Shown here piece after piece: positions 30,190 to 57,364 of a DNA stretch of 64,000 nucleotides (position 1 is its first letter; the number at the start of each line of letters is the position of its first letter). This DNA is from a virus (taxonomy: Duplodnaviria > Caudoviricetes), in IMG/VR virus record IMGVR_UViG_3300005611_000001. The stretch is one strand, 5' to 3'. Both the position numbers and the translations under genes were made by a program. The notes beneath the pieces were generated by a model. The model ran no database searches. It saw only the letters and a list, made by a program, of their open reading frames with translations, and had not been told where the DNA came from.

Positions 30190-31488
30190 TCAGAAACCTG
30201 TTTGACTAGTTTCAAATGAGTAAAGAGCATAACGAAGCGCATCCGCAATGTGCGAGCTTTCATCATGTTTTGGTTTTTCGGTTTGCAGTCCTGGTCGATC
30301 ATCCCAGCGATACTGGTCGATGGATCTAAGGGTTTCTTTACACTCTTGGTGAATGACGAGCCGATCATTGTCAATAATAGAGGAGACATGCCCAATTCCA
30401 TCAATCACGGATTTCTTCGCATTTGTACAGCTAATATCGTAATTCTGAGCAAAGTCGAACTTCGTTTGCTGCGCTGCGGAGTCAATAAAAACAAAGTCTA
30501 CCTGATATTTGTCTAGAATTTCTCGAATATACTGAGCGTGCTGCTCTGTTGTGCGCTCAGCATGGTAATATTCTTCGAGAAGATAAAACTTTTCGGAATC
30601 CCAGTCGTACGCTATAACCACCAAGGCGGTAGGATCACGAAAGCCGACGTCGAGCCCAGCGATAATATCCATTCTCGATGTATCCAACTCAGAAAGGTTT
30701 TGGACGCAATCTTGAAAGTTGAAACTCCAGATTTGACCTTCATAAACATTAAAGTCTGCCATATATTCTTGAGCGAATTCAGCTTCACTCATTGTTCGTC
30801 TCGCCTCGTCAATGTCTGTTTGAGAAATACGAGGATTGTCTAAATAAGTTGCTTTGATTGATACCCATTCGGGGAATTCATCGGAAAAACCACGATAAAA
30901 GAATTCAGAAAACCAATTGTTTCTACCTCGAGGAGTAGAAATAAAGATCGCTTTTGAGTTATCTTTGTCCAGCGTTGGTCTGAGAGCCACATTAAATGCA
31001 TCTCTTCCATTTGCGAGGGCGGCTTCGTCAAAAATAATCAGATCATAGCTTCTACCCACGCTGGAATCGACCTGATTAATGGATCCCATTCTTACGGTCG
31101 AGCCATTTGTAAGCTCAATAACTTTGTCTTTTGCGTTGTCTCGTGCTACTTCTAGGTCAAAGTGCTTAATGAGGTTTCGCTGCAAATCAAAAGAGATCTG
31201 AGACAGCGAGTAGTTTGGAGACATGATAAGAATGTGGCAATTTGGAATCAACGAAATGAGTTGTCCAATGATATTAGCGATATAAGTCTTTCCTTGGCGT
31301 CGAGACAAAGCCGCACACACAAATCTATACTTTGGCGAATTGATTGCATTGATAAGAGCCACCTGAGAGGGAATAGGCTCAATGCCAAGAAGCTCAAGAT
31401 AGCCTTCGATTGGTAGTTTAATGAACCTACGAGGATCCTCGCTTTCCACAATGTGGTCAATAATTACATCTTTTCTGCTGACTTCCAT
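30190..31488 (-). CDS. terL: Terminase large subunit
   Basis: Walker A SRRQGKT, Walker B LIIFDEAA, FISTPRG, nuclease AGLDVGFRDPT, SHIADALRYA. Confidence 0.95.
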   Translation of the reverse strand: MEVSRKDVIIDHIVESEDPRRFIKLPIEGYLELLGIEPIPSQVALINAINSPKYRFVCAALSRRQGKTYIANIIGQLISLIPNCHILIMSPNYSLSQISFDLQRNLIKHFDLEVARDNAKDKVIELTNGSTVRMGSINQVDSSVGRSYDLIIFDEAALANGRDAFNVALRPTLDKDNSKAIFISTPRGRNNWFSEFFYRGFSDEFPEWVSIKATYLDNPRISQTDIDEARRTMSEAEFAQEYMADFNVYEGQIWSFNFQDCVQNLSELDTSRMDIIAGLDVGFRDPTALVVIAYDWDSEKFYLLEEYYHAERTTEQHAQYIREILDKYQVDFVFIDSAAQQTKFDFAQNYDISCTNAKKSVIDGIGHVSSIIDNDRLVIHQECKETLRSIDQYRWDDRPGLQTEKPKHDESSHIADALRYALYSFETSQTGF

Positions 31489-32192
31489 TCTTTAATTTTC
31501 CATTTTCCGTCGTAAATAATTGCTGTCATACTTTCGACCCAATCTCCAGTATTCAAGTAATGAATTCCTTCAATTTCTCGATTGCACGCAGAATGTATAT
31601 GCCCCGCGATGATTCCATCATACCCCTTGCTACGAGCATATTTTGCCATTTCGCCCTCAAAGTTACCAATATAGTTAGCAGCATTTTTTGCTTTACTTTT
31701 AAGGTACCTGCTAAGAGACCAATAATCTAAACCTAGCCATCTACGAATACGCGTAATCCATAAATTTATATAAGTTACAGCGTCATAAGCCTTATCGCCT
31801 AATTTCATAACTAATTGGCCAAACTGAGATCTCATAAGGTAATCAAAAAAGTCCCCATGAATCACAAGATACTTTTTTCCTTCTATTTCTAAATCTGCCC
31901 GATTAACAACTTTAATTTTTCCAACATCACAAGGCGCCCAACTACGAAGAAATTCATCATGATTACCCGTAACGTAAATTACTTCAGTACCTTTTTGAGA
32001 TAAAGTTACTATCTTTTTTAGAAGTTTTGTATGTTTCTGAGGCCAGTACCACTTCTTTTGTAGCCTCCAGCCGTCAATAATATCCCCAACAAGATACAAC
32101 TTTTCTGGTTGAACAGAGCACAAAAACTCATAGCATTGTTCAGCTTTTGCGTGTCGAGAACCTAAATGAATATCAGAAATAAAAACTATCAT
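31464..32192 (-). CDS. plcP: PlcP-like (LpxH2-type) metallophosphoesterase / phospholipase C
   Basis: SDIHLG, LYLVGDIIDGWRL..WYWPQ, GNHDEFLR, HGD.FD, YWSLS.YLK, AGHIH, NTGDWVES. Confidence 0.75.
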   Translation of the reverse strand: MIVFISDIHLGSRHAKAEQCYEFLCSVQPEKLYLVGDIIDGWRLQKKWYWPQKHTKLLKKIVTLSQKGTEVIYVTGNHDEFLRSWAPCDVGKIKVVNRADLEIEGKKYLVIHGDFFDYLMRSQFGQLVMKLGDKAYDAVTYINLWITRIRRWLGLDYWSLSRYLKSKAKNAANYIGNFEGEMAKYARSKGYDGIIAGHIHSACNREIEGIHYLNTGDWVESMTAIIYDGKWKIKEWKSAEKM

Positions 32193-43055: not shown

Positions 43056-43341
43056 TGAAAAGCGCTCCCAGGCTTTCTTTAGTAGCCTTTTCCAAGCCGG
43101 GAAGGCTAACGCCTAGCCTGTCAGAAATGGCTCGCACGATATCTTCCTTCGATTGAACCGGCGAGCCGTCCTTGCTACGCTTTGCTGCGCGCTCGTATTG
43201 AATACCGGCGCGAACTGCTGCAGCAATAATGGCACGCGGCTTTTCCCCGAATTGTTCGGCGATAGCCGTAGCTTTCGCCATATCCAAGGGCGCAGCTGCT
43301 ACCATAGCAGCCATCACCTCACCTTCAAACTTGCTAGCCAT
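43042..43341 (-). CDS. T5 A2-like DNA-binding protein, copy 1 (leftward)
   Basis: IAEQFGEKPRAIIAAAVRAGIQYER..R.KDGSPV.SKED.V..I...LG..L.GLEKATKE.L; AAGGAG RBS; next to dmp. Confidence 0.6.
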   Translation of the reverse strand: MASKFEGEVMAAMVAAAPLDMAKATAIAEQFGEKPRAIIAAAVRAGIQYERAAKRSKDGSPVQSKEDIVRAISDRLGVSLPGLEKATKESLGALFNALG

Positions 43342-43935: not shown

Positions 43936-44070
43936 TTGCATTCAACAACTATTACATTCAACAACTATTGCATTCAACAACTATTACATTCAACAACTAT
44001 TGCATTCAACAACTATTGCATTCAACAACTATTGCATTCAACAACTATTGCATTCAACAACTATTGCATT
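43936..44070. repeat. Tandem array of a 16-bp unit (8 full copies plus a partial)
   Basis: TT(G/A)CATTCAACAACTA repeated without spacers. Confidence 0.95.
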
Positions 44071-44365
44071 TGACAATCAAATGCGCGCTTCGCGCCAAAG
44101 TGCAAAGTCAACAATCTATTGAGTTTGCGCTCCGCGCCAAAGTGCGAAAGTGATAAACCTAAAAAACGTGCCGCAGGCACCAAAGTGCGAAACCTAGCCC
44201 ATTATATTGTACCACGAAAGCACGCGCGTTGTCAAGAAAAACTTTCGATGTCTCTCGACAGACGGTCGAAAATTTTTCTTGCTTTTTTGCTCGGCCCTCC
44301 GTATAATATCTTTTCAAACATAGGGGAAGCAATGGGCATCCCCGGAGACTCTAGGAAAAACTATT

Positions 44366-44662
44366 ATGGCATCTCGTTTCGACGACGCAGTACTCGCAGC
44401 AATGCAGGCAGCAGCTCCTCTCAACCTGGAAAAAGCAGAAGCACTTGCTGAGCAGTTTGGTGAAAAGCCGCGTGCTATTATCGCTGCCGCAGTTCGTGCT
44501 GGCATTCAATATGAGCGCAAGGCTCGTATGTCCAAGAATGGCGGTCCGGCTGTCTCGAAGGAGGACCTGGTTGCGCAGATTTCGGAGAAGGTTGGCGCTA
44601 ACCTGTCCGGGCTTGAGAAAGCTACGAAGCAGTCGCTACAGGCCCTTCTCTCAGCCGTGTAG
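44366..44662 (+). CDS. T5 A2-like protein, copy 2 (rightward, inverted relative to copy 1)
   Basis: Shares a 24-aa identical stretch AEQFGEKPRAIIAAAVRAGIQYER with 43042..43341. Confidence 0.6.
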   Translation: MASRFDDAVLAAMQAAAPLNLEKAEALAEQFGEKPRAIIAAAVRAGIQYERKARMSKNGGPAVSKEDLVAQISEKVGANLSGLEKATKQSLQALLSAV

Positions 44663-44670
44663 TCCGAACC

Positions 44671-44700
44671 AAGCCGGGGCAACTGCCCCGGCTTTTTTAT
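44671..44700 (+). terminator. Intrinsic terminator
   Basis: AAGCCGGGGC-AACT-GCCCCGGCTT-TTTT. Confidence 0.85.
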
Positions 44701-44985
44701 GCTTTACAAAAATGGGCAGCGTAGCTGCGCCAAATAAAGTGCGAAAGCTAACTGAAATTTGCGCGCCTGCGCCGAACCGCACGTTCTCCCCCATTTTCAT
44801 ATATTATACGCGGGCCGGCAAGGTTTGTCAAGGCTTATTTTCGGTTGTCTCGGGGTAAGCCGGGGCGGGGCAACATAATTTTTGAAAATTTAGTTTAATT
44901 GCAAATAATTCTTGACAATTTTAGGTCGTGTGTGGCCCCCCGAAATACAGTGCGTTCTGCTTCCGACATACCCCGAAAATAAATC

Positions 44986-45014
44986 TTGACTCCAAAGACT
45001 CCTTTGCGTATAAT
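44986..45014 (+). promoter_or_regulatory. Early sigma70 promoter (first of a series)
   Basis: TTGACT-17-TATAAT with an A-rich UP region; similar sites at 45998-46026, 46758-46786, 47438-47466, 49637-49665. Confidence 0.85.
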
Positions 45015-45045
45015 ATGCGCATACTTTGGAAAAGCGGAGAAGATT

Positions 45046-45988
45046 ATGACGAAGGCCCAGTTAGATATGCTAACGGCTTATTACGGTATGGTTCAGGACG
45101 GCTGCTCCAAAGAGCAAGCCCTAAGCTATATTCTGCTCATGAAGTTTGATGCCAAAGATGTGGTGTGGCTTGTGGAGAAAGTAAAATGAAGCGTCCTACT
45201 CGAAAGCAGTTAAACGGTTACTCTTTGAGTGAGCTTAAAACTATGCTCAAACGAGCAGGCCACAAAGTTCCTCGAAACCTAGAGCGAGAGGCATATGTCA
45301 CTGAATGTGATGGGCGTTTGTTTCGGTGGCGTTGGTGGGCGGAAGAATTCGTAGTTGATCGCAGCGAGCCTATTGAAGATTTCGACCGTTGGGCAAATAG
45401 TGTAGAGGGTAGTTTCCCGGTTAGTTCGTTATTTGGAGAAAAAGCATGATTGTACGAGTAATGTTTGACGCAGCTGACGCGCAGTTCTCTTTCTTTCAGC
45501 CGATGGAATGGACGGAGAAAGTGCGTCGGCATCGTGAGTCGCTGATTGATGCAGGCGAGCTGAATGAAATTGTAGCTGAGCAGTTGTACGACTTTGAAGT
45601 TGTCGAGATGTTCTATGGCGATGAAGTGTTTACTGATGCTTTCCATGTTGAGCGCAACACCAACTACATGATGTTCTTTGATCAAGAGACGAATGATCTC
45701 AATGTTTTCACGCTACATGAGTGGGATAATGTGCTGCAAGAGTTGGCCGACGAAGATGCTGATATGAATCAAATTTTCTATGCGCCTCTGATTGTCTAAG
45801 GAGTGATGAATATGGTTGAGCAGAGAATAACTTGGACATACCAGTACGGAAATGAAAAAGTCGTCTTTAAGTTTAACATGGATGACAAGACTCACAAAGA
45901 AGTGTTTATGAAATGGGTTGACTTCATGAACGCTATCGGTTATACCGTAGATCCGACTGAAATGGAAGCAATGTGGAATGGTGAGTAA
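45046..45988 (+). CDS. Cluster of four small early hypothetical ORFs
   Basis: Coupled ORFs about 45046-45189, about 45186-45449, 45446-45799 and 45803-45988, with GGAG RBSs. Confidence 0.6.
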
Positions 45989-45997
45989 AAATAATTC

Positions 45998-46498
45998 TTG
46001 ACAACACACCTCCAACACCGTATAATATGTACATATTTTGAAATGGAGCAATACGCAATGCGAGCAAAAGTTTTTTGGGAACGGTGCTGGAGTACGGAAG
46101 ATGCTCTGCTTACGGAACAGCTGGTTGACTTTGCTATTCGTTATTTTGATCTCGGCAAAGGTAAGCTAGAAGTTCTGATGGATGAGGAAATTGAAAGCGG
46201 TAGTATTGCAGAAGCTCTGAAACTCGGCAAGAAGAAGTTCATGATTGTTCTCTCAAAAAATCAGATTGACTCAGATGAAAGTCTTGCTCGCAGTGTCTTT
46301 CATGAGATGACGCATATCAAGCAGTATATGAAAGACGATTTTAAGATTGGTGCCAAGAAAGTAAGCTGGCAAGGTGAAAAATTCAATGTGAGGTCGGAGA
46401 AAGACTATTGGCTATCTCCGTGGGAAATGGAAGCACGAGCAATGGAAGAGGCTATGCTTCGATTCTGGGAGATTGATTGTGAAGAGCGTGGTGCATAA
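45998..46498 (+). CDS. Putative Zn metallopeptidase (start probably ATG near 46058)
   Basis: VFHEMTHIKQY (HExxH), SPWEMEARAME. Confidence 0.75.
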   Translation: MTTHLQHRIICTYFEMEQYAMRAKVFWERCWSTEDALLTEQLVDFAIRYFDLGKGKLEVLMDEEIESGSIAEALKLGKKKFMIVLSKNQIDSDESLARSVFHEMTHIKQYMKDDFKIGAKKVSWQGEKFNVRSEKDYWLSPWEMEARAMEEAMLRFWEIDCEERGA

Positions 46499-46821
46499 AG
46501 ATTGTCGGAGTCCGAAGTATCGGGCTCGAGTAGAACGCAACAAGAAAAAATATCATCGACCTGCGGAGAAACGAAATGACCGAAATGGATATGATCGTCG
46601 AGAAGATTAATGAGCAGCTTCGTACTGCTCGTAGTAATTGTGACTTCTTTAATTATGACGAAGATATGCTAGGCTTTCTTCGTGGACGTATTGACGCGCT
46701 AATGGATGCAAAGCGCCTCGTTCGAGAAGCCCAGTTCGAGATTATGAAAAATAGTTCTTGCATGGAATACTGAAAAGCCCTATAATATATTTTTAAATCA
46801 AAGAGCCACTGGAGGCACGAC

Positions 46822-47139
46822 ATGAGCGAAGTTAAGTACACTGAAGAAATGGTTGAGCGTATGGTCCAGCTTTACACCGCGAATCCTACTCGTGAGACGG
46901 TGGACGCGATTGCAGAGGAGTTCGACAAGCCTGCTCGTTCGATTATCGCCAAGCTCACTCGCGAAGGCGTTTACCAGGCGCAGCCCCGTACTTCTAAGAC
47001 CGGCGAGCCTGTGATTCGTAAGGAGCAGCTTGTGGCATTCATCGCAAACAAACTCGCAGTTGAGCTGCCTTCTCTTGCAAAAGCTACGAAAGCAGACCTC
47101 ACGAAGCTGGCTGCTGCTATTCAGCGAGATGTTGCATGA
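46822..47139 (+). CDS. A2-like paralogue 3
   Basis: YTEEMVERM...AIAEEFDKPARSIIAKLTREGVYQAQPRTSKTGEPVIRKEQLV...LAKATKADL. Confidence 0.6.
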   Translation: MSEVKYTEEMVERMVQLYTANPTRETVDAIAEEFDKPARSIIAKLTREGVYQAQPRTSKTGEPVIRKEQLVAFIANKLAVELPSLAKATKADLTKLAAAIQRDVA

Positions 47140-47385
47140 TGCTTCCTAGCACCAAGTGGACGGAACTGGGCGCTTGGGAAAACAGGCACGACACGAAAGT
47201 GTTCGTGTCTGTTTGTACTCAAGATATTGTTGACTATCTCAAGGAGCAGGGACTTTTTGCTGCCAAAAGCGATATTGTGGATGCTATCGACGAAGCCTGG
47301 GACGAGGACGACATGTCCGAGCTCTACGAAGAAATCTACGATTCGGTAGTAAAAAAGCTATCGAATAAAGTACAAAAAGTATAGT

Positions 47386-47418
47386 GAAAGGGGTGGCACT
47401 GTCCACCCTTTTTCTTTA
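47386..47418 (+). terminator. Intrinsic terminator
   Basis: AGGGGTGG-CACTG-TCCACCCT followed by a T-run. Confidence 0.7.
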
Positions 47419-47934
47419 TAGGTTCAAAAAATAAATCTTGACATTTTTTCTCTGCTATGGGATAATATGTTCTTCGCGCAGGAGTATAAGTGTGGGCGAC
47501 ATAATAAAGTTTCCAAACTCAGCTAAAAAGCACGGGCAGCAAGCACAACAAAGACTCAATGAGTTGATTGATATTGTGCATGACTACAGTGTAAAAAACA
47601 GCGAGGCTTGGGTTAATCTTGCGATCAGTTTTACTGAATATCAGCAAGCATTTATGGCCTATGCCTACCTTGTAGGCGAAGATAACGTCGAGGAAGAATA
47701 CTGGGAACTCTTTCTTGGCGGTGAGTATAACTCCCAGGACACATTTCAGTGGGACTTTGAATATGTCTATGACTGGTGATTATTATATGGACGGCTACGA
47801 TCTTGCTTGTGCATATGCTAACGAAGAGGATGCTCTTTCCGCTCTTCGTGCACAAGGCTACTCGCAGTCTGACATTCAAGCATTTATGGAATACCGCTAC
47901 ACTCTCGATGGGTTTTACGAGGGAGACGTAGAGG

Positions 47935-48291
47935 ATGTCTATTAATTACACTGCAGAGCAGACTACTTACGTTATTGACGAGTACCTGAAGAACAAAGAC
48001 GATGATGAAGTAATTAAGCGTCTAGCCCAGGAACTCAACAAGAGTGAGAAGTCGATTATTGGTAAACTCTCCAAGGAGAATGTTTACGAAAAACGTGTTT
48101 ATCGCAGCAAGTCGGGCGAACTTCCTGTGACGAAAAAAGAGTTAGTTGCAAATCTATCTTCTTTGATTAGTGCAGACCCCGAGAGACTGCAAGGGTTGGA
48201 AAAAGCACCTAAGCTAGAGCTTAAATATCTTATCCAACGATTAGAGGACACACTGCGTGAAACAAGTACTTGCGACGGTCAAGTATTATGA
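47935..48291 (+). CDS. A2-like paralogue 4
   Basis: NYTAEQT...LAQELNKSEKSIIGKLSKENVYEKRVYRSKSGELPVTKKELV...GLEKAPKLEL. Confidence 0.6.
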   Translation: MSINYTAEQTTYVIDEYLKNKDDDEVIKRLAQELNKSEKSIIGKLSKENVYEKRVYRSKSGELPVTKKELVANLSSLISADPERLQGLEKAPKLELKYLIQRLEDTLRETSTCDGQVL

Positions 48292-48477
48292 AACTGCAAA
48301 CGGTAGAGACTGGAATTATAGAGGTCTCAGAGAAGTAGACCTTGGCTATGTCCATGACGAGGATCTGGAAGATGACATGGAAGAGTGGGCTCGTGGCAAG
48401 TTATATCGCTATGGTAACACTCTGACCTGTAAACAAAAACAAGAACTTGTAGGATGGACAGTTAGGGACTCTTACTA

Positions 48478-48951
48478 ATGCTTGCAGATGCGGTCATGTG
48501 TTTGGCTTTAAATATTTATTGGGAAGCTCGTAATCAGCCGATTAAGGGGAAGAGGGCGGTTGCAGAAGTAGTGATCAATCGATCATATTCTCCAAAGTTT
48601 CCTAATCATCCGTGTGATGTTATTTACCAAGCTAAAACCTGGCCGAGCGGTCATCCCAAGAAGCACCGGTGCCACTTTAGCTGGTATTGTGATGGCCTGT
48701 CAGACTACCCAACCGATTGGCGAGCATATGCTGAAGCGCTAATACTTGCTAATCGTATTTGGAGCGGGCAAGAAGATAGAGTAGCCCCGTGCGAATTATA
48801 TTATCATACAATTCAAGTGGACCCCGATTGGGCTATGAGATTTGAGCCTACACAAATAATCGGCGACCATATATTCTATAGAGAAAAAGATGAAAAAGAT
48901 TGTACTTCCCCTAGTTTTCGCAAGTTTGATTTCCACGGCCAACGCTGGTGA
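48478..48951 (+). CDS. Cell-wall hydrolase (SleB/Hydrolase_2)
   Basis: CLALNIYWEARNQ...AVAEVVINR...C.VIYQ...CHFSWYCDG..D, YYH..V.P.WA, IGDHIFYR. Confidence 0.9.
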   Translation: MLADAVMCLALNIYWEARNQPIKGKRAVAEVVINRSYSPKFPNHPCDVIYQAKTWPSGHPKKHRCHFSWYCDGLSDYPTDWRAYAEALILANRIWSGQEDRVAPCELYYHTIQVDPDWAMRFEPTQIIGDHIFYREKDEKDCTSPSFRKFDFHGQRW

Positions 48952-49119
48952 TGACACCAAAGATTATAACGCTTGTCTTCAATCCATTAAGCATGAGTAT
49001 CAAGATGTTGCTAAAACCCGCATTTCTCGTATGAACCGGCACAAGATTAAGATTATTGTGTGGGATTTGACTGGCAAGCACGTTGTTTACTGTGATCGTA
49101 AGACGAAAGAGGTGCATGA

Positions 49120-49653
49120 GTGATCGGTGAGAAAGTACCAAATGTTACTCTCTACACGAGAGTTCGTGATGAAAGTATTGAAGGACCAAATCCGTTTCGT
49201 TGGGAACTTGTGCAGACAGGCGAGCTTTTTACAGGAAAGACTGTAGTAGTCTTTTCTCTGCCTGGAGCATTTACTCCAACGTGCAGCACTTATCAGCTTC
49301 CGAACTTTGAGAAGCTGTATAATAAGTTTCAGTTGCAAGGAGTGGACGAGGTCTATGTGTGCAGTGTAAATGATGCGTTTGTCATGAATAAATGGCTAGA
49401 GCATCAAGACGTGAAAAACGTTAAGGCACTTCCTGATGGAAATGGTGACTTCACTCGCGCTATGGGTATGCTCGTGGATAAAGAAAATCTTGGTTTTGGA
49501 AAACGAAGCTGGAGATATGCCTTTATCGCTCGAGACGGCAATATCTCGCATTGGTTTGTGGAGCCTGGTTTCCGTAACAATGCTGACGACGATCCTTATG
49601 GTGAAACAGATCCTGAACATATCTTGAAAATTTTTCTTGATTCTTTGGACTAA
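49120..49653 (+). CDS. Peroxiredoxin (Prx5/type II)
   Basis: VVFSLPGAFTPTCS..QLP, VNDAFVM, PDGNGDFT..MGM, RSWRYA. Confidence 0.9.
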   Translation: MIGEKVPNVTLYTRVRDESIEGPNPFRWELVQTGELFTGKTVVVFSLPGAFTPTCSTYQLPNFEKLYNKFQLQGVDEVYVCSVNDAFVMNKWLEHQDVKNVKALPDGNGDFTRAMGMLVDKENLGFGKRSWRYAFIARDGNISHWFVEPGFRNNADDDPYGETDPEHILKIFLDSLD

Positions 49654-49867
49654 AAGCCATATAATATATAAGAAATGGGGGCAGCCGGACCCATAAATCC
49701 GGCATTATAGAGCCCTCCAAGCCTCTTAACAATGCTCAAATCGTGAGGGCCGTTTACCGGTTGTTGGTTCGCCCGGTCTGTCGTTAGCAAGCGCCATCAG
49801 CCACGATTAAGTTGCGTATAGGGGTGGTGCCCAAGGGCGAGATGCAGATAAAAACCATCATTTTTCT

Positions 49868-49942
49868 GCCTCCTTGGCCGAATGGTAAGGCAACTGATTT
49901 GTAATCAGTAGATTGGGAGTTCGATTCTCTCAGGAGGCACCA
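49868..49942 (+). tRNA. trnT: tRNA-Thr(UGU)
   Basis: Acceptor GCCTCCT/AGGAGGC, anticodon arm ACTGA-TTTGTAA-TCAGT, TTCGA loop, encoded CCA. Confidence 0.9.
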
Positions 49943-50112
49943 GTTTTTGGAGTGGCTATGTTTACGGAAAAAGAATTATTTCTTATTTTAAAAAATCTAA
50001 GAAGTCAGGAAACGATACTTAACTTTAAGTACGTTGACGATGATAGTGCTGACGTAATTGAAGAGTTGTCTGAAGTTCGTAGTCTAATCAATAAAGTTCA
50101 AGAACTCATTCT

Positions 50113-50189
50113 GCCCGCTTAGCTCAGCTGGATAGAGCATCTGCCTTCTAAGCAGACGGTCGGGAGTTCGAGCCTCTCAGCGGGTACCA
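50113..50189 (+). tRNA. trnR: tRNA-Arg(UCU)
   Basis: GCCCGCT/AGCGGGT, TCTGC-CTTCTAA-GCAGA, GTTCGAG, encoded CCA. Confidence 0.92.
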
Positions 50190-50462
50190 ATTATGACGAA
50201 AGAAGAAATCACGGCGGGGTTGCTCAAAGCCCTTGAAAACGAAAACAAAGCAGAAGCTAGAAGATATTTGCGTCTGCTACGAAAAGCAGGAGAAGAGGAA
50301 TGGGAACTCGAGGCATACGAAGTAATCCTGGAGAGCGAGTAGCTCTTGCAAAATGTCATGCGTTGCTAAGATACCTGGAAACGCATAAAGACCCCGTAGT
50401 GGGGCAAAAAGCTCGAATACTCCAGCGTGAGATTGAAGATTTGATACCGGGGCTGCCCCGCT

Positions 50463-50487
50463 AAACCCGCCTAGAGCGGGTTTTTAT
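50463..50487 (+). terminator. Intrinsic terminator ending the tRNA-containing unit
   Basis: AAACCCGC-CTAGA-GCGGGTTTTT. Confidence 0.8.
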
Positions 50488-51157
50488 TGCCGGCGGGGTC
50501 ATCGTAAGACCTACTGAGCTAGAAAATATAGACAGTCACGGCGGGGCCTTCCTCACAATTTTCGTTTACGTAAGCTAGGAGAAACTTCGTGTGAAAGAGG
50601 GATAACTTTGAGTAATTTTATTACTTATTCTCTTAAATACGTCCCTTACGAAGGTAACGACTCATATTAGACTTATGGGCTTCAACAAGTGGGAGTGAAG
50701 TATAACCCCGCTTTAGTTTCGTTGAGAAAATCGCGAATTGTCGCATACCCGTCTTAAAAAGTAAATTACATATGGAAGTTTGGTTTCTTCCAGTTATTAT
50801 GCAATAACGGGGATTTAGAGAACCATGCAATTAACTCTAGAGCATTCCAACGATATATCGAAAAAGAAAGGTTTTTATTACACCTGGAGAGAAAGGGTTC
50901 CGCTAAGGCTACACCTTTCGCTCCGACGCTGTAAAAAACGATTTCAATTGCGATATCACTTTGGAGGATTTCACTCTAGGCTTAAGCGCAGCTTCTCATC
51001 AGATTTTAGCTCGGCAGTAGCGAGGCAGAAGTAACTAACATAGCTGCTTCTAAAGAATATAAATATTTTATCATACATCTATTTGAATGTAAAGAATTAT
51101 TTTTGAGCAGGTATGACTACTTTCAGCTGTGTGCTTCGATAGCCATAAAAAAGGCTC

Positions 51158-51532
51158 TTAAAAGGGCCTTAGTGAGTAAGTAAATTTTCTTATCTTTCCT
51201 GCCGCTTTTGAATCGATTTCTTCTGCATTATAGTGCGCAAGCAATGCATTTCCGTACATACATTTCCAGGGAACTTCCCCGGGGTCAGTGCGCGTTGTAT
51301 GTAACTTCCAGATTTCACTCGTAGGACGTTTCATACAGGTCAAATAAAGCCATACGTTCGGAGTCTTCTCAAGTTTACACATTTTACAATGCCCTCTCTG
51401 TAGTAGTGCTCGAGGACTCTCTTTCCAGCGATGTCCTCGCTCACACTCATGTTCGATCGGTCGATTCATACTCCAGTATCGACCTACCGGCCACATTCCT
51501 TCAAGTCGTAAAGTGTATTCTCGTGTATTCAT
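51158..51532 (-). CDS. Zn-ribbon protein resembling a homing-endonuclease DNA-binding module
   Basis: IEHECERGHRW..SP..LL..GHCKMC. Confidence 0.5.
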   Translation of the reverse strand: MNTREYTLRLEGMWPVGRYWSMNRPIEHECERGHRWKESPRALLQRGHCKMCKLEKTPNVWLYLTCMKRPTSEIWKLHTTRTDPGEVPWKCMYGNALLAHYNAEEIDSKAAGKIRKFTYSLRPF

Positions 51533-52058
51533 AGTTTTATTGCTACCATTACTATAAGAGCAATCAGTAGAATATTGACCATCAATAACTCAAGTGCGAG
51601 TATCGTATGATACCAGATCCATCGCGTTTTGTACGCGTTATCAACAGTCAAGTCCTCTGGATCAGGAGACTTGAAAATGTACTTTCGTATATTCATACAT
51701 TATCTCGTTCAGACTGAGACAGTGTTTGCTCTCAAAGTTCTCAATAAAGTTTTCAAATCTTGGAGTATAACTCGTGAAATACTCTCTCACGGGGTCGACG
51801 CAAAGTGGATCAAAGCACAATATAAACCACCCCTCTTTTCTTTTCTCTAGACTATATCTCCACATTGGGGGAAATCCATCATTACTACCCAGGGCCATTA
51901 ATGAACAGGGCTCCAGTTAAACAATTCAGGAAACATATTTAAAGTGCGGTACATAGAATTAGGATCAAGCTCCCAGAACTCTTTCCACTCAGGATCTTCA
52001 TTCATCGAAACTACGTAACGAACATATGGTTCAGTAGGATGCTTTAGATAGAAGAGTC

Positions 52059-52451
52059 TTATTTCCATATGCAGGGTTCCAGATTCGGCTCACGATAGTT
52101 AGGGCCTTTCATTACTTTACCATCTTCACGCCGCAGAGGCTTACCGTCAGCCCCGAGCTTACTCATGTTGCTTGAATGTACTTCTTCAAAGCAAGAGTCT
52201 AGATCAATACCGAAAGCATGACCGGCTCCTAGGGTGACATAAAGAATGTCCGTAAGAGCGTCGGCCACTTCAATAAGTGCTTCTTTCTCATCAATAAGCC
52301 CCTGCTCGTACTTATACAGGCCGTCTCGAAGTTCCTGAACTTCTTCCTCAATAAGATGAAGTCGAAGTTCTAGCGGGCGATTCTTTAGCGCCGGTTCTTC
52401 GTGAACGTGCTGCCCGAAAGAGCGCATAAACTCTGCTACTTTGTTAAACAT
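52059..52451 (-). CDS. MazG-like / all-alpha NTP pyrophosphohydrolase
   Basis: LIEEEVQEL, EVADALTDILYVT.G, FEEVHSSNMSK...REDGKVMKGPNY; promoter TTGACT-17-TATAAT at 52475-52503. Confidence 0.85.
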   Translation of the reverse strand: MFNKVAEFMRSFGQHVHEEPALKNRPLELRLHLIEEEVQELRDGLYKYEQGLIDEKEALIEVADALTDILYVTLGAGHAFGIDLDSCFEEVHSSNMSKLGADGKPLRREDGKVMKGPNYREPNLEPCIWK

Positions 52452-52522
52452 AATAATCCTCCACTTGGAAGAATATTATAGCTTACACCACACAGAAAGT
52501 CAAGTAGTATTTTTTAGCACAT

Positions 52523-52546
52523 AAAAAAGCCCTCTTCGTGAGGGCC
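52523..52546 (-). terminator. Intrinsic terminator after glutaredoxin
   Basis: GCCCTC-ACGAA-GAGGGC followed by TTTTTT on the minus strand. Confidence 0.75.
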
Positions 52547-52601
52547 TTACTGCAGCTGCGCCGAACACGCTTTTTCAGTATATAAAAACGTTTTCCGTGT
52601 G

Positions 52602-52835
52602 TCAATCCGCAGCCTGACCCAGAATCTTTACTAACTCATCATAGCCACCAATCCAGTGCCCGTCGATAAGTATCTTCGGATAAGTACGACTTCTAGGAAA
52701 CTCCTCACGAGCCTCGCTTTCATCAAAGTCATAATGAAGAAGCCGGTACTTATAAGGTAGTCCGGCTTCTTCAAGTAATATTTTGCTTTCTTCGCAGAAC
52801 TTACAGAAGTTCTTGCCCCAGATTTCTATGTCCAT
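52602..52835 (-). CDS. Glutaredoxin
   Basis: CKFC active site, RTYPKI..DGHWIGGYDEL. Confidence 0.85.
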   Translation of the reverse strand: MDIEIWGKNFCKFCEESKILLEEAGLPYKYRLLHYDFDESEAREEFPRSRTYPKILIDGHWIGGYDELVKILGQAAD

Positions 52836-53257
52836 AGCGTCGCCAAGTATTTCCCGAAGAGTTCGTAACCTCTTTGAATTCTAGCTTCGTACTCTTCCGT
52901 TAAGTTTACGCCCCCTTCAAACAGAGTGCCGGGCTCACGATATATGGGAGCTTCCAGAGTTACCTGTTCAAAGGTCCAAATTAATTCATTAAGAAGCCAT
53001 TGCCAGCGATCATAATCGTACTCGTTCATGTTTCTTAGATCCACGGGTACGTCAGAATTGTCGACTGTGCCGAAACTCACATCGTTTTCCTGCAACTTGA
53101 GTAACATGGCATAGACTAAAGGAGCAAGTGTACTTTCAAAAGACATGATGTCTTCATCTTCTACATTTAACTCTTTTACTTGCAGATTATGTCTTCGGTA
53201 AATCATATGTGAGCCAGCCTTTCCATAAAGGTGGAATAACATTTTTCCCAGGACCAC
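52826..53257 (-). CDS. Conserved phage hypothetical protein
   Basis: STLAPLVYAMLLKLQE...RWQWLLNELIWTF...RIQRGYELFGKY..LW. Confidence 0.55.
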   Translation of the reverse strand: MVLGKMLFHLYGKAGSHMIYRRHNLQVKELNVEDEDIMSFESTLAPLVYAMLLKLQENDVSFGTVDNSDVPVDLRNMNEYDYDRWQWLLNELIWTFEQVTLEAPIYREPGTLFEGGVNLTEEYEARIQRGYELFGKYLATLWT

Positions 53258-54183
53258 TCAGGTCCGGAAACTCGTCCAAGACTTTTGCATTTTTCTATAG
53301 CTTCTTCTAAGTTATTGCTGAGATATCCTGTTTTATTTATCTCTACAATATCGCAGGGTCCGGGTACTGGATAAGCTGCAACCGGAGTTCCTAGTGCTAA
53401 ACTTTCGATAAGTACAATTCCAAAGGTATCGGAGCGGCTGGGAAAGCAAAAAACTTCAGAAGAAGCATATTCATCTGCAAGTTCTTGACCTTTTTTGTAC
53501 CCAACAAAATTTACATTAGAATATTTTTGTTCGAGTATTTTTCTCTCGGGGCCGTCGCCTACAATATGAATGTCATACTTCGATCCCAATACACATAGGT
53601 CTTCTAAGTTTTTCTCTTTGCTAACTCTTCCAACGTACAGCACACGATTTTTAACTGGCTTTTTATTACTGATAAATTGAGCCTTATCTACCCCACGGCT
53701 CCATAATATTAAACTACCATTAAATTTTTTATCACGAAGCTGCAAGCGAATGGACTCTGTAGGAACCAAAGTATTTGCCGCTCTAGAGTGAAACCATCTT
53801 AGATACTTCCACGTAATACCAGAGGGAATTTTATACATCTTTTCTAAAAACATAGGAAATTGAGTATGATAGCTAGTAGTAAATTTCCAGTTTTTCTTAA
53901 TACAATAAAGTCGAGTTAAAAGCCCAAGAGGCCCTTCTGTAGCGATATGAATATGAGTAGGCTTATAGGAAGAAATTTCTTGAAAAACCTTCAAAGGCTG
54001 AACCGTAAGCCTTACTTCGGGGTACCCAAAAGCAGAAACATTGCGAAAGTCATCAGGAGTAAGAAGCCGAAGCTCCGCATAGTCTGGCATAAAAACTTTG
54101 GCAAGTTCTTGAATTTTATTTAGAGTTATTGCAACTCCGTTGACTTGACTTGTTAAGTTGTCACTTACTACTAAAACTCGCAT
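53203..54183 (-). CDS. Agt-like GT4 glycosyltransferase (glycosyl-diacylglycerol synthase-like)
   Basis: Start MRVLVVSD...QVNGV..TL; YPEVRL, HIATEGPLGL, FTTSYHTQFP, YLRWFH, WSRGVD, GRVSKEKNL, FPSRSDTFG.VLIESLA.GTPVAAYPV.GP. Confidence 0.8.
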   Translation of the reverse strand: MRVLVVSDNLTSQVNGVAITLNKIQELAKVFMPDYAELRLLTPDDFRNVSAFGYPEVRLTVQPLKVFQEISSYKPTHIHIATEGPLGLLTRLYCIKKNWKFTTSYHTQFPMFLEKMYKIPSGITWKYLRWFHSRAANTLVPTESIRLQLRDKKFNGSLILWSRGVDKAQFISNKKPVKNRVLYVGRVSKEKNLEDLCVLGSKYDIHIVGDGPERKILEQKYSNVNFVGYKKGQELADEYASSEVFCFPSRSDTFGIVLIESLALGTPVAAYPVPGPCDIVEINKTGYLSNNLEEAIEKCKSLGRVSGPEWSWEKCYSTFMERLAHI

Positions 54184-54347
54184 TTCTTCTTGTTCCATCT
54201 TTTAATAGCAGCCTTACGAGCACGACGACGAGCGTCACTCGGTTTCTCATAAAACTGGCGCTCACGATATTCCTGGAGCTTCTCGCTCACACCGCGTTTT
54301 AGCTTTCTTAGTGCGCGATCAACATTGTTCTTCACTTGTACTTTCAA
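54171..54347 (-). CDS. rpsU: Ribosomal protein bS21 (58 aa, TTG start, not in track)
   Basis: MKVQVKNNVDRALRKLKRGVSEKLQEYRERQFYEKPSDARRRARKAAIKRWNKKKCEF; AGGA RBS. Confidence 0.85.
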   Translation of the reverse strand: MKVQVKNNVDRALRKLKRGVSEKLQEYRERQFYEKPSDARRRARKAAIKRWNKKKCEF

Positions 54348-54614
54348 ACTGTAGTCCTAGTTGGCTGTCCACGAGACAGCGCATTGTCTGCAATACTTGC
54401 CCCGCATTGACGAGAAAATCGTCATCCTCAAGTGAACAGCCATACTCCAGACATTTTTTCGTAAATTCGGTAAACAGCTCGTCTACCATATCCTCTCTAC
54501 GGTCAAGAACCGTATACTTCTCACGAGGGAATTGAATAACCATATATTACTCTCAAAGGAAGTTATGCCTCTTGCTTAATAAAAAGCGGCTTAAATAACC
54601 CTCCATACTCGCGT

Positions 54615-54703
54615 ATTGTAGCTCACTTTCGTCTGGCTGTCAACAAACATTTTTAGGTAGCTTAAAAATAAGTGTTGACACGGCGGGGTCTTTCCCGTAT
54701 AAT
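54615..54703. promoter_or_regulatory. Divergent sigma70 promoter pair
   Basis: Minus TTGACA-17-TACAAT (54615-54643); plus TTGACA-17-TATAAT (54675-54703). Confidence 0.85.
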
Positions 54704-54895
54704 ATATCCATAATTTAGGAGAAATCCCATGAAAATTTTACCCGCTTCTCCCGTGTTTCCCATCAATCCGTTTCAAGAGAGAGTCGAGATTACGACTTAT
54801 CGAGTATCGAACGAGGATGTGCGAGAAGTAACCTACGTGTATGATTCCGAAGGAAATCTAGAAACAACTCGTGTTGTAACTGTGGATGTAGAAGT

Positions 54896-55141
54896 ATGAA
54901 AGTAAAGATACCGGAACAAGAAACTCTCACTCAGACTCTTATTGATTGGGCCTGGGAAAAAAAGAAAGCTGGAATCACATTTAAAAAGACTCAAGAGCTA
55001 ATTAAATGTGATGCTACAGAATTTTCTCATCTTCGCAAAGGAAAAAGAAATTTCTCTCTAGAGCGTCTCATTGCAATGCTACGACGTACAGGTGAGTTTG
55101 AAATCGAAGTTATCGTGAGGAGAAAAAATGAAACACTGTAA
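54896..55141 (+). CDS. XRE-like HTH protein
   Basis: ITFKKTQELIKCDATEFSHLRKGKRNFSLERLIAML. Confidence 0.55.
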   Translation: MKVKIPEQETLTQTLIDWAWEKKKAGITFKKTQELIKCDATEFSHLRKGKRNFSLERLIAMLRRTGEFEIEVIVRRKNETL

Positions 55142-55198
55142 GTTTTGGTCCTTTCATCAGCGCAAGTTTCTTTCCTATGACGAGTGGATTAAGGAGAC

Positions 55199-56798
55199 TT
55201 GGTAATGATCATTTTTGATCTTGAACAAGAAATTATGAAAGCCTGGAGTGTCGTAGACGATCTCAAGGATGCGGTAGAGTTTTTAAATGAGTGGCAAGGC
55301 GATGCTCTGAATCCTGAAGATAAGCGAGATAATCTTCTTCTGGGCATGGCAGCTCTCTATCAGATGCGCTTTGAACGTCTCTGGAACACTTTTGAAAAAG
55401 TTACGAAAGAACATCACGCTTTGCGTAGGAATCAAGCAGATGAAAAATAGATACGGCGACGAGTATCATTGGGAAAAACTCAATGACAAAGAATACAAGT
55501 TTGTGATGGAAGGCGAGTCGATGGATTACTGTCTTTGGGGCGCGAAAGAAGGCCAAGATAAAATCGATATGAATGATCTTGGTATGTTCGATCCAAGTGG
55601 GGGCCCGTATGTTGCAATTGGATCTTTAGTAGAAGGTAAAGCCATCGAACACATTCGTAGAGCTGAAGAAGGTTTTATCGTAAAGGTAAAGCTATGAGCA
55701 ATAAGAAACTGTTGGAAGGACTTGACGAACTGCGCGAATCACTGCAAGAAGCACATGCTGAGTACGAAGCCGAGAACGATGCATGGTGGAACGGTCTCAC
55801 TGAAGAAGAACGTGAAGATGCGTTCTATGCGGTAATCAAGCGAATGTATCAAGCAGAAGTAATAAATCGCCGTACTTATCGTGGTGCACTGTATGATGTG
55901 TTTGGATTTGATATGGGTATGTACGGCCAAGGCATGAGTTGTGGATACTTTAACCTACACAATATGATCTTCGATAGTTTTGAGTTGAGTGCTATGAAGA
56001 ATGTAACTCGCTTTGAAGTGATTGATGATAAAGGTCGTACTTATGTTAAGTATCTAAAGGACGACGAAGTAATCAAGTATAGTTTACAAGATGATGACCG
56101 TACACTCAAAGTGTTTATTGACAACCTAAGGTGGAAAGAAGATTTATGAACGAACGAATCCAAGACCTGTATCGAGAAGCAGAGAAATCTGTTGCGTTCG
56201 TGAGTAACTCAACGGAATCTAAACAACTGATCATACGGGAAAAGTTCGCCGAGTTGATTGTACAAGAATGTGCTAGTATTGTGTATAAAACTTGTCAAGA
56301 TGGTGATGCTGGTGCCCAGGCTATTTTGTATGAATTTGATATTGACAATGCCAGAAGTCAAAAATAAACATTTCGGAGTTGAAGAATGAACCGTTTAGAA
56401 ATCTTTCAAGAAGTATATGGCAAGGACTATGTGTTTACTGAAACCGAACTAAGCCAGTTACAACAAGTCGCCGAGTTGATTGTGCGAGAGTGTGCTGCTG
56501 TATTGGATAAACGAATTGCGCCACCCAATCATCCCATGAACAGTTTGGGATATGAATTGAAACAACATTTCGGAGTTGAAGCATGAGCATTAAAGTAGAT
56601 CAAAGACGAGCAGTATTCGCAAAACTCAAAGACTATTGTATGCATAGTGGCGACCATGACTACATGGAAGTCACTGAGTGGTCGAACGGTGAAGGGTACG
56701 ACATCTGTATTGATCGCAAGAATGGCGGCGAGAAGTTCAGTCTCACTTACGGTGAGTGGGAACTGTTACAAGTGCTGATAAACTATAAGGGTGAGTGA
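55199..56798 (+). CDS. Cluster of small coupled hypothetical ORFs
   Basis: 55199-55450, about 55440-55697, 55694-56149, about 56146-56367, 56386-56586, 56583-56798; ATGA overlaps. Confidence 0.6.
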
Positions 56799-57244
56799 TT
56801 TTAAGTGGAGCTGATATTGTTAAAGTCGGCATTGATCTTGGTGGTGTGTGTGCTGCTCGTATTAAAACTGGCGTGGGATACCCACAACTATCTGCAGTCA
56901 TTGAATGCGCTGATGCTGCGTATGGCCTTAGTGGACACATTATTGCTGACGGTGGTTGTACTTGTCTTGGCGATGTGGCCAAAGCCTTCGGCGCTGGAGA
57001 TGCTAAGGTCCGAGAGTTTTTTGGAGCAGCAAAGCAGGTCGGAAGCAAATTGAGGGAGAGTGATGAACCAATGAATAACGTAGTTCAGTTTCCGATCCAA
57101 GGCGTCAGCACCATCGACGCCTTACGCCACTGCGTTTTATATGCTCGTGAGCATGGGGAGATTGATGTTGTAGCCGGCGCTCATTTGCTAAATGCGCTTG
57201 ACACTGTTGAACAACTGTATCTGTCTCTTACAGAAGGAGAGTGA
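56795..57244 (+). pseudogene. GMP reductase (GuaC)-like internal fragment run into an unrelated small ORF
   Basis: [59 protein letters not shown]; the rest of the TIM barrel is absent. Confidence 0.75.
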
Positions 57245-57271
57245 GTGATATATACTAAATTCAAAAGTTAT

Positions 57272-57347
57272 GCCGTCATAGCTCAGTAGGTAGAGCGTCT
57301 GATTTGTAATCAGAATGTCCGGGGTTCGATTCCTCGTGACGGCACCA
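57272..57347 (+). tRNA. trnT: tRNA-Thr(UGU), second, divergent copy
   Basis: GCCGTCA/TGACGGC, TCTGA-TTTGTAA-TCAGA, GTTCGATT, encoded CCA. Confidence 0.92.
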
Positions 57348-57364
57348 ATTCCGAGAAGAGTAAC

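What the first reader, a model, noticed from the sequence alone, without database searches (positions are those of the whole stretch)
53203..54183. Agt-like glycolipid synthase in an early operon: second half of the PlcP/Agt pair
Seen: a GT4 with QVNGV..TL, HIATEGPLG, TSYHT.FP, WSRGVD and DTFG..L.E.LA.GTPVAAYPV.GP, coupled to bS21 under a sigma70 promoter. Established: bacterial agt usually lies next to plcP and makes glucuronosyl/glucosyl-DAG. Inference: the cellular plcP-agt pair has been split between early (agt) and late (plcP) phage regions. This suggests timed host-membrane remodelling, which I am not aware of as a described phage system.
Basis: partly seen in the sequence, partly recalled or inferred. 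Interest (0 to 1): 0.8.

Follow-up and report, generated by a model that had tools for sequence, protein, structure and literature searches.

The report
Phage-borne Agt-type glycolipid synthase gene
A marine T5-like phage carries a close relative of the bacterial enzyme Agt, which turns diacylglycerol into phosphorus-free sugar lipids. The partner phospholipase gene plcP sits 21 kb away on what appears to be the same phage DNA, so the phage can probably rebuild its host's membrane.

Summary
Window 53203-54183/54198 (-) encodes a 326/331-aa GT4 glycosyltransferase. Its start overlaps the stop of a bS21 gene, behind a sigma70-type promoter whose hexamers are conserved in relatives.

It passes every Agt/GTcp test I could run:
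- All residues shown by mutagenesis to be essential in SAR11 GTcp are present.
- It has one strong full-length match per bacterial genome, always the plcP-linked gene.
- Its nearest reviewed structural neighbours are diacylglycerol-glycolipid synthases.

plcP directly followed by agt is the rule in 63/80 bacterial and 77/80 viral loci. Many viral loci lie in T4-like genomes. I found no paper describing this in phages.

Here the two genes are 21 kb apart. plcP is a 713-nt insert fused to the front of the terminase gene. The 'early versus late' timing is only a positional inference, because sigma70-type promoters occur throughout the window.

The window record is composite: T5-like up to about 56.8 kb, T4-like beyond. 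Both genes lie on the T5-like side. They are separated by a 16-nt x 8 tandem array where another assembly breaks, so linkage is supported but not proven.

This scan had already noted the plcP/agt pair on this same record (e1-5388294, e1-5388305, e1-5388355).

The parts
54615..54643 (-). sigma70-type promoter of the operon (-35 TTGACA, 17-nt spacer, -10 TACAAT). It is paired with a divergent 12/12 promoter at 54675-54703 (+).
   Evidence: The hexamers are conserved and the spacer has diverged in relatives L264/L265.
54319..54543 (-). orf74, first gene of the operon, no family match
   Evidence: Conserved in L163-L165 and L264-L267.
54171..54347 (-). ribosomal protein bS21 homologue (58 aa). Its stop overlaps the GT start.
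   Evidence: PF01165 and TIGR00030 above cut-off, phrog_21469. 95% identical in L264-L267.
53203..54198 (-). Agt/GTcp-type GT4 glycosyltransferase (331 aa; probable start at 54183, giving 326 aa)
52826..53206 (-). orf126 (phrog_11543, unknown function). Its ATG overlaps the GT stop (ATGA).
52602..52835 (-). glutaredoxin-like protein, last gene of the unit
   Evidence: PF00462, phrog_22
52526..52548 (-). terminator-like hairpin with a T run, closing the unit. New sigma70-like sites follow, ahead of MazG.
31464..32192 (-). PlcP-type metallophosphoesterase (242 aa), the presumed upstream enzyme of the pathway. It overlaps the terL start by 25 nt.
   Evidence: Pfam Metallophos. All motif residues are conserved: D7, H9, D37, N77-H78, H112, H198, H200. 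Homologues lie directly upstream of GT homologues. It is a 713-nt insertion relative to L169.
30190..31488 (-). terminase large subunit, T5-like, immediately downstream of plcP
   Evidence: phrog_2. 49-50% identical to T5-like phages.
43936..44070 (.). 16-nt x 8.4 tandem array between plcP and the GT. It is the point where an independent assembly splits into two contigs.

Best explanation
The gene encodes a retaining GT-B glycosyltransferase of the Agt/GTcp clade of family GT4. During infection it most likely transfers glucose and/or glucuronic acid from host UDP-sugars onto sn-1,2-diacylglycerol at the inner membrane. The products would be monoglucosyl- and/or glucuronosyl-diacylglycerol.

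Its substrate is probably supplied, at least in part, by the phage's own PlcP (31464-32192), which would cleave the phosphorylated head group from host phospholipids. The pair would therefore replace phospholipid with phosphorus-free glycolipid without waiting for the host Pho regulon. That would free phosphate for phage DNA synthesis and keep diacylglycerol from accumulating.

Shown here:
- family membership by residues, orthology pattern, gene neighbourhood in relatives and fold;
- an intact PlcP in the window;
- a conserved promoter and operon;
- the gene order.

Inferred:
- the sugar donor and the products;
- the phosphorus-scavenging purpose;
- that the two genes act together;
- that they are expressed at different times (the GT with bS21 and nucleotide-metabolism genes, plcP with the packaging genes).
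For: Residues:
- Every residue whose mutation abolishes SAR11 GTcp activity (PMC8231724) is present. These are G21, G89, G92, H111, R168, R191, K196, D257, T258, F259, G260, E265 and W317, with S167 at the Thr162 position (Ser in 40/75 bacterial homologues).
- This includes the clade-typical Asp in place of the usual GT4 Glu.

Orthology:
- In five bacterial genomes there is exactly one strong full-length match (246-259 bits, 43-46% identity).
- It is always the plcP-adjacent gene. The next GT4 paralogue scores 72 bits or less.

Neighbourhood:
- A homologue of the window's PlcP lies directly upstream on the same strand in 63/80 bacterial loci. These include Erythrobacteraceae and Rhizobiales, the groups in which agt was defined (PMC4796936).
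- The same holds in 77/80 IMG/VR loci; in the other three the GT gene starts within 180 nt of the contig end.

Fold:
- The AlphaFold model has pLDDT 90.6.
- The best reviewed structural neighbours are glycolipid-forming GT4s: MgtA, alpha-monoglucosyl-DAG synthases and SQD2, at TM 0.82-0.83.

Partner and linkage:
- PlcP keeps all metallophosphoesterase motif residues.
- Both genes join viral clades.
- The two flanks of the array carry inverted paralogues of one T5-type gene. The ends of contigs A and B carry the same repeat with the same TTGC/TTAC variants.
Against: - No activity, product or transcript data exist.
The residue mapping rests on motif positions.
- The FPSxTDTFG motif reads FPSRSDTFG here. 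Ser replaces a Thr that is invariant in 75 bacterial homologues but variable in viral ones.
- plcP is absent from the closest T5-like relative (L169, TerL 97% identical) and from all 80 terL-relative loci. The GT may therefore often work without a phage PlcP.
- The GT was found identical in three assemblies, the PlcP in only one.
- Linkage across the tandem array is not proven.
- Timing is unsupported by any data. Sigma70-type sites precede both gene blocks.
Confidence: 0.72

Rival explanations
1. Same chemistry, different purpose. The glycolipid is made to change the properties of the infected cell's envelope rather than to recover phosphorus. Possible aims are exclusion of other phages, altered receptor display, membrane stability until lysis, or resistance to cationic agents.
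For: Lipid head-group composition changes phage attachment in Ruegeria (PMC9938194, listed). Glyceroglycolipids raise polymyxin resistance in P. aeruginosa (PMC9804370). The GT lineage is found more widely than the phage PlcP, so the GT is kept even where no phage PlcP is seen.
Against: In 77/80 viral loci the GT travels with PlcP. Some of those loci sit near phoH, which fits a phosphorus-stress module. No data link these lipids to exclusion in any phage.
Confidence: 0.2
2. The GT is Agt-like, but it and the PlcP belong to different molecules. On this view the record is mis-joined at the tandem array (43936-44070), so there is no phage-borne pair in this virus.
For: The record is demonstrably composite further on, at about 56.8 kb. 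In ENA ERZ27252103 the two genes lie on separate contigs that both end in the array. Exact-match scans for either flank found no public contig spanning it. bS21, MazG and glutaredoxin are typical of T4-like marine phages (PMC7029224).
Against: Both contig ends carry the same 16-mer with the same TTGC/TTAC alternation. The array's 30-mer has no exact match in 2.9 million IMG/VR contigs. The array is flanked by inverted paralogues (43042-43341 and 44366-44662). Both have homologues in T5-like relatives' contigs, and the right-hand copy is the closer one to G003 (40% against 36%). Contig B's cell-wall hydrolase is closer to a T5-like relative (45%) than to the T4-like phage Melnitz (38%).
Confidence: 0.15
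3. The protein is a GT4 with another acceptor, such as LPS core or O-antigen, a capsule or teichoic-type polymer, a protein, or DNA. This is what is usually assumed for phage glycosyltransferases.
For: The pelagimyophage survey assigns phage GTs to O-chain modification (PMC7029224). JGI names the homologues 'glycosyltransferase involved in cell wall biosynthesis'. NCBIfam gives only weak C-terminal-domain hits to many GT4 families.
Against: There is one-to-one correspondence with the plcP-linked gene and a gap of at least 170 bits to all other GT4 paralogues. The DAG-contacting His, Arg and Trp are conserved. No LPS or sugar-nucleotide genes lie in the operon. T4-type DNA glucosyltransferases are not GT4, which I state from my own knowledge.
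Confidence: 0.08

Closest known systems
Agt of Agrobacterium tumefaciens (atu2297) and GTcp/Agt of 'Candidatus Pelagibacter' HTCC7211 (PB7211_960, WP_008545403.1); Agt1/Agt2 of P. aeruginosa
   Same: Similar size (326-331 aa against 334). GT4 GT-B fold, His-Asp catalytic dyad, GRVxxEKN and FPSxxDTFG motifs, DAG-contacting Arg and Trp. Homologues are genetically coupled to plcP.
   Different: It is encoded by a phage and is only 38-46% identical to the bacterial members sampled. It belongs to a separate, well-supported viral clade with its own signature residues (N14, S193, K194, W315, C320). It is not next to plcP, and it is driven by a constitutive-looking sigma70 promoter in an operon with bS21 rather than by a Pho-box promoter. 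No activity has been measured.
plcP-agt cassettes on uncultured viral contigs (IMG/VR and ENA), many from T4-like myoviruses
   Same: Same two genes and the same viral clades. At least 479 IMG/VR contigs carry a relative. Four of five large records carry a T4-type Gp23 capsid gene, and two of them are complete genomes of 164-170 kb.
   Different: In those contigs plcP sits directly upstream of agt (64/77 within 200 nt). Here the genes are 21 kb apart in a T5-like siphovirus. Both are long-branch members (GT 45-51% identical to other viral copies), and plcP is fused to the front of terL. I found no publication on these cassettes.
Other diacylglycerol glycolipid synthases of GT4: alpha-monoglucosyl-DAG synthases of Acholeplasma laidlawii and S. 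pneumoniae, plant SQD2, corynebacterial/mycobacterial MgtA
   Same: Best reviewed structural neighbours (TM by query 0.73-0.83, 19-25% identity). All act on DAG or on a DAG-glycolipid at the membrane.
   Different: They belong to different sub-families, are longer, and have no plcP linkage. NCBIfam models for them match only the C-terminal domain, far below their cut-offs.
Phosphate-stress auxiliary genes of marine phages (pstS, phoA, phoH)
   Same: Host-derived genes carried by marine phages that bear on phosphorus supply. phoH lies near the plcP-agt cassette in L002 and in the T4-like phage Melnitz region. The role of pstS and phoA is stated from my own knowledge.
   Different: Those genes import or release external phosphate, or are of unknown function. 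This pair would mine the host's own membrane.

Membership tests
Agt/GTcp clade of GT4 (DAG glycosyltransferases) | GT-B fold with GT4 N- and C-terminal domains | tested here: met
   Pfam PF13439 and PF00534 above cut-off. AF2 model with pLDDT 90.6 shows two Rossmann-like halves. Foldseek matches GT4 structures at E 1e-14 to 1e-23.
Agt/GTcp clade of GT4 (DAG glycosyltransferases) | Catalytic dyad His104-Asp256 (GTcp numbering), with Asp in place of the usual GT4 Glu | tested here: met
   H111 and D257. Both are invariant in 75 bacterial and 84 viral homologues. The criterion comes from PMC8231724. The mapping is by motif position, not by direct alignment to GTcp.
Agt/GTcp clade of GT4 (DAG glycosyltransferases) | UDP-sugar motifs GRVAxEKN and FPSxTDTFG plus Glu264, and the Gly residues G16, G82 and G85 | tested here: met
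   GRVSKEKN (190-197), FPSRSDTFG (252-260), E265, G21, G89, G92. One deviation: S256 where bacteria have Thr. Viral copies vary at this position (T38/N12/S11).
Agt/GTcp clade of GT4 (DAG glycosyltransferases) | DAG-contacting residues His104, Thr162, Arg163, Trp320 | tested here: met
   H111, S167 (Ser in 40/75 bacterial copies), R168, and W317 (the only C-terminal Trp conserved in bacteria, 74/75).
Agt/GTcp clade of GT4 (DAG glycosyltransferases) | High identity within the clade and low identity to other GT4s (<25% according to PMC8231724) | tested here: met
   38-46% identical to plcP-linked bacterial genes. In five genomes the next GT4 scores 72 bits or less against 246-259 bits.
Agt/GTcp clade of GT4 (DAG glycosyltransferases) | Gene directly downstream of plcP (typical, not obligatory: 'type 2' context of PMC4796936) | tested here: not met
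   In this window plcP is 21 kb away and in another transcription unit. In relatives the adjacency holds in 63/80 bacterial and 77/80 viral loci.
Agt/GTcp clade of GT4 (DAG glycosyltransferases) | Synthesis of MGlc-DAG and/or GlcA-DAG from DAG and UDP-sugar | not testable with these tools
   Needs expression and lipid analysis.
Agt/GTcp clade of GT4 (DAG glycosyltransferases) | Direct alignment or tree including the characterised proteins Atu2297, PB7211_960 and PA Agt1/2 | not tested
   Their sequences could not be fetched: the control genomes lack these species and the genome scan kept only the best 80 loci. Family-level stand-ins were used instead (Erythrobacteraceae, Phyllobacteriaceae, Rhizobiaceae).
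Ribosomal protein bS21 | Match to the curated family models over the whole protein | tested here: met
   PF01165 46.4 bits (cut-off 27). TIGR00030 50.5 bits (cut-off 28.95).
PlcP (metallophosphoesterase phospholipase C) | Calcineurin-type metal-binding motifs and linkage to agt in relatives | tested here: met
   D7-x-H9, G36-D37, G76-N77-H78, H112 and G197-H198-x-H200 are all conserved. Pfam Metallophos. Homologues lie upstream of agt homologues. Phospholipase activity was not tested.

The most novel reading that the evidence does not exclude
Phage-encoded PlcP-Agt lipid renovation is a widespread class of auxiliary metabolism in aquatic phages that I could not find described. It would be present in hundreds of T4-like genomes as a two-gene cassette. 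In this T5-like lineage the two steps would have been placed in separate transcription units: agt with bS21 in an early-type operon, and plcP fused to the terminase gene. On this reading the glycolipid synthase is in place before phospholipid breakdown starts, and membrane phosphorus is released when DNA is being made and packaged.
Probability: 0.3. Interest if true: 0.75.

Novelty: new variant of a known kind. Interest (0 to 1): 0.6.

Why it matters
Replacing phospholipids with glycolipids is a major way for marine bacteria to lower their phosphorus needs, and PlcP abundance tracks low-phosphate waters (PMC4796936). If phages carry and express both enzymes, three things follow.

- **Metagenomic signal:** part of the plcP/agt signal in ocean metagenomes would be viral.
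- **Regulation:** infected cells may remodel their membranes regardless of the Pho regulon.
- **Phosphorus source:** phages would gain a new internal phosphorus source for DNA synthesis, in addition to pstS/phoA-type uptake.

It also gives a compact, testable two-enzyme system. Annotation needs correcting too: databases call the GT a 'cell wall biosynthesis' enzyme and the PlcP 'LpxH'.

Tried and rejected
- **T4 late-promoter motif:** TATAAATA is not enriched (5 found against 3.4 expected), so it cannot be used to class plcP as late.
- **Whole-genome search:** not possible, because no genome is held for this window.
- **Named Agt references:** I sought them through the control genomes, but Agrobacterium, Pseudomonas and Pelagibacter are not among them.
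- **Public contig spanning the tandem array:** exact scans found nothing for the array 30-mer in IMG/VR, or for the left flank and right flank in JGI metagenome contigs.
- **Sequencing runs:** no RNA holder is listed. The DNA holders have small shares apart from one marine metagenome at 0.27-0.30. I did not lay reads, because k=31 contigs cannot bridge a 135-nt array.
- **GT or PlcP in T5-like relatives:** none in five long records that are 31-60% complete, and none in 80 terL-centred loci. These are fragments, so absence from the phages is not shown.
- **GenBank phages:** the best match to the GT is 29% identical and there is no close DNA match.
- **PF20706 'GT4 in conflict systems':** 20 bits, below the cut-off of 26, so rejected.
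- **PDB sequence search:** only distant C-terminal-domain matches.
- **Closest PlcP relative (P0177, 66% identical):** its contig DNA could not be fetched, so whether it also precedes a terminase gene is unknown.

Full report
**1. What is there.**
- On the minus strand, an ORF at 53203-54198 encodes 331 aa.
- Pfam assigns Glyco_transf_4 and Glycos_transf_1 above their cut-offs.
- The ORF just upstream, 54171-54347, is bS21 by Pfam, NCBIfam and PHROGs. Its stop codon lies inside the GT start region.
- The GT stop overlaps the ATG of a 126-aa ORF of unknown function (ATGA). A glutaredoxin-like gene and a terminator-like hairpin follow.
- Ahead of the first gene (orf74) lies TTGACA-17-TACAAT at 54643-54615, back to back with a perfect divergent promoter.
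- In contigs from four other runs, whose GT is about 92% identical, the order orf74-bS21-GT-orf126-Grx-MazG is kept. Both hexamers are also kept while the spacer has changed, which argues for a working promoter.

**2. Is it Agt?**
- The protein has thousands of relatives (7748 with E <= 1e-10 among the candidates scored).
- I fetched 80 bacterial and 80 viral loci encoding relatives and asked where homologues of the window's own PlcP (31464-32192) lie.
- In 63 of 80 bacterial loci, PlcP is directly upstream on the same strand, within 345 nt. In 77 of 80 viral loci it is upstream on the same strand, 64 of them within 200 nt. In the three viral exceptions the GT gene starts within 180 nt of the contig end.
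- The bacterial loci include Erythrobacteraceae and Rhizobiales. These are the groups in which the plcP-agt 'type 2' arrangement and the lipids MGDG and GADG were described (PMC4796936).
- In five bacterial genomes the window protein has a single strong full-length match (246-259 bits). It is always the plcP-linked gene, and the next GT4 paralogue scores at most 72 bits.
- Wei et al. (PMC8231724) defined the clade biochemically in SAR11 GTcp:
  - a His104-Asp256 dyad, with Asp instead of the usual Glu;
  - the motifs GRVAxEKN and FPSxTDTFG;
  - essential residues G16, G82, G85, R190, K195, T257, F258, G259 and E264;
  - DAG-contacting residues H104, T162, R163 and W320.
- The window protein has the corresponding G21, G89, G92, H111, S167, R168, R191, K196, D257, T258, F259, G260, E265 and W317.
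- An AlphaFold model built on 27 sequences is confident (pLDDT 90.6).
- Its best reviewed structural neighbours are glycolipid-forming GT4 enzymes: MgtA, alpha-monoglucosyl-DAG synthases and SQD2. In the PDB, BshA, PimB' and PimA lead.
- I could not align to Atu2297 or PB7211_960 themselves, and no activity can be tested here.

**3. The viral context is much wider than this window.**
- In a maximum-likelihood tree, all 45 non-redundant viral rows group on one side of a 100% SH-aLRT branch, apart from 70 bacterial rows. The window sequence and two Methylophilaceae MAG contigs fall on the viral side.
- The window sequence sits on a long branch. It shares viral signature residues N14, S193, K194, W315 and C320.
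- Four of five large viral records with the adjacent cassette carry a T4-type Gp23 capsid gene. Two of them are complete genomes of 164-170 kb.
- Other contexts show RNR, PhoH and 2OG oxygenases typical of marine T4-like phages.
- The window's PlcP also joins the viral PlcP clade, with SH-aLRT 89 and a very long branch, so its placement is unsure.
- Seven literature searches found no description of phage-borne plcP or agt. The pelagimyophage survey treats phage GTs as O-antigen enzymes.

**4. What kind of phage, and are the two genes on one molecule?**
- *Left part, T5-like siphovirus.*
  - The terminase is 49-50% identical to T5-like phages.
  - There are Pfam hits to T5 small terminase, T5 nicking endonuclease and T5 dNMPase.
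  - It also has a protease-capsid fusion, portal, major tail protein, tape measure and a J-type fibre.
- *From about 57.3 kb, T4-like.* The genes are gp32 (56-61% to Kyanoviridae-type phages), ThyX, the gp33 late-transcription coactivator and a baseplate protein, collinear with phage Melnitz.
- *Evidence that the record is mis-joined at about 56.8 kb.*
  - An ENA contig (k141_442085) matches the window at 99.65% from 43936 to 56163 and then diverges completely.
  - A JGI contig has the same called genes as the ENA contig on that side.
  - At 56795 the window begins a 5'-truncated IMPDH/GMP-reductase fragment.
  - tRNA-Thr(tgt) occurs on both sides of the junction.
I did not test that.
- *Linkage of the two genes.*
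  - Both plcP and the GT lie on the T5-like side, but a 16-nt x 8.4 tandem array (43936-44070) lies between them.
  - In the ENA assembly, contig A (window 857-44029, 100% identical over the 20.7 kb compared) ends in the array and contig B starts in it.
  - Both contig ends show the same TTGC/TTAC alternation.
  - The array is flanked by inverted paralogues of a roughly 98-aa gene, and homologues of that gene occur in T5-like relatives.
  - I therefore judge linkage likely (about 85%), but it is unproven. No public contig spanning the array was found.

**5. The 'split pair' and the timing.**
- Compared with the closest IMG/VR relative (L169, TerL 97% identical), the window has exactly 713 extra nucleotides between orf101 and terL. 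This insert is the plcP gene, and its last 25 nt overlap terL.
- An HNH-type gene just upstream is also an insertion.
- None of 80 terL-relative loci has plcP or the GT. A 66%-identical PlcP on another small contig is likewise followed by an overlapping gene, but its DNA could not be read.
- plcP is therefore an accessory gene placed in the packaging block, while the GT sits in a conserved bS21 operon. Whether they came from one cassette is open.
- For timing, strong sigma70-type sites are spread over the whole window. Six are perfect 12/12 matches, including two in the tail region, and an 11/12 site at 33145 precedes the HNH-orf101-plcP-terL run.
- To my knowledge, T5-type phages use sigma70-type promoters for all temporal classes. 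'Early' and 'late' therefore rest on gene neighbourhood only.

**6. Verdict.**
- The pairing with a phage PlcP on one genome is probable.
- The timed-remodelling idea is a reasonable but untested inference.
- The enzyme is a known kind. The new elements are its carriage by phages, apparently undescribed although common, and the unlinked arrangement in a T5-like phage.

Noticed in passing
window 56163-57350: The record looks like a mis-join of two phages, T5-like to the left and T4-like (Kyanoviridae-type) to the right. Independent ENA and JGI contigs follow the window to 56163 and then diverge. A 5'-truncated IMPDH/GMP-reductase fragment starts at 56795. tRNA-Thr(tgt) occurs on both sides (49868 and 57272). 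The break lies in a run of paralogous ORFs of about 70 aa.
   Followed up: partly
window 43936-44070 (flanks 43042-43341 and 44366-44662): A 16-nt x 8.4 tandem array (TTGCATTCAACAACTA, with TTAC variants) lies between divergent promoters and is flanked by inverted paralogous genes of about 98 aa. It lies beside a T5-type dNMPase gene. It could be an iteron or origin, or an analogue of the T5 injection-stop region. It breaks a k=141 assembly.
   Followed up: partly
window 54171-54347: bS21 is here carried by what appears to be a T5-like siphovirus. In the literature read here it is reported as a core gene of pelagimyophages (PMC7029224).
   Followed up: no
window 29505-30112, 31489-32201, 32541-33191: Three insertions relative to the closest relative L169, in the terminase region: an unannotated stretch of about 640 nt, the plcP gene, and an HNH/endonuclease VII-like gene.
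   Followed up: partly
window 5892-7040: A second glycosyltransferase (382 aa; phrog_3408, E 6.5e-163; the Glycos_transf_1 domain only). It lies in a low-GC stretch (36%) among the tail-fibre genes. It is unrelated to the Agt clade.
   Followed up: no
L004 and L006 (Methylophilaceae MAG contigs): Two 'bacterial' contigs carry viral-clade Agt genes without an adjacent plcP. These could be phage-to-host transfer, a prophage, or binning contamination.
   Followed up: no
L268 (ENA ERZ27249278, 273.6-kb contig): A PlcP that is 56% identical to the window's is overlapped by an upstream GT2-family glycosyltransferase instead of a GT4. The contig is large and phage-like, with UvsX/RecA-like and RNA ligase genes. 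This may be a second kind of viral lipid-remodelling pair.
   Followed up: no
L001 7004-7729; L002 5965-6681; L166 4894-5331: In T4-like contigs the plcP-agt cassette is followed by a fatty-acid desaturase (L001), lies near phoH and 2OG oxygenases (L002), or is followed by an APS-kinase-like gene (L166).
   Followed up: no
window 5878, 21909, 41393, 44831 (-) and 45998, 54675 (+): Six perfect TTGACA-17-TATAAT promoters occur in 64 kb, where about 0.02 would be expected by chance. Some lie inside the structural block.
   Followed up: partly
window 34590-35189: A sulfotransferase-like ORF (Sulfotransfer_2 / phrog_3347) lies between the small-terminase region and plcP.
   Followed up: no
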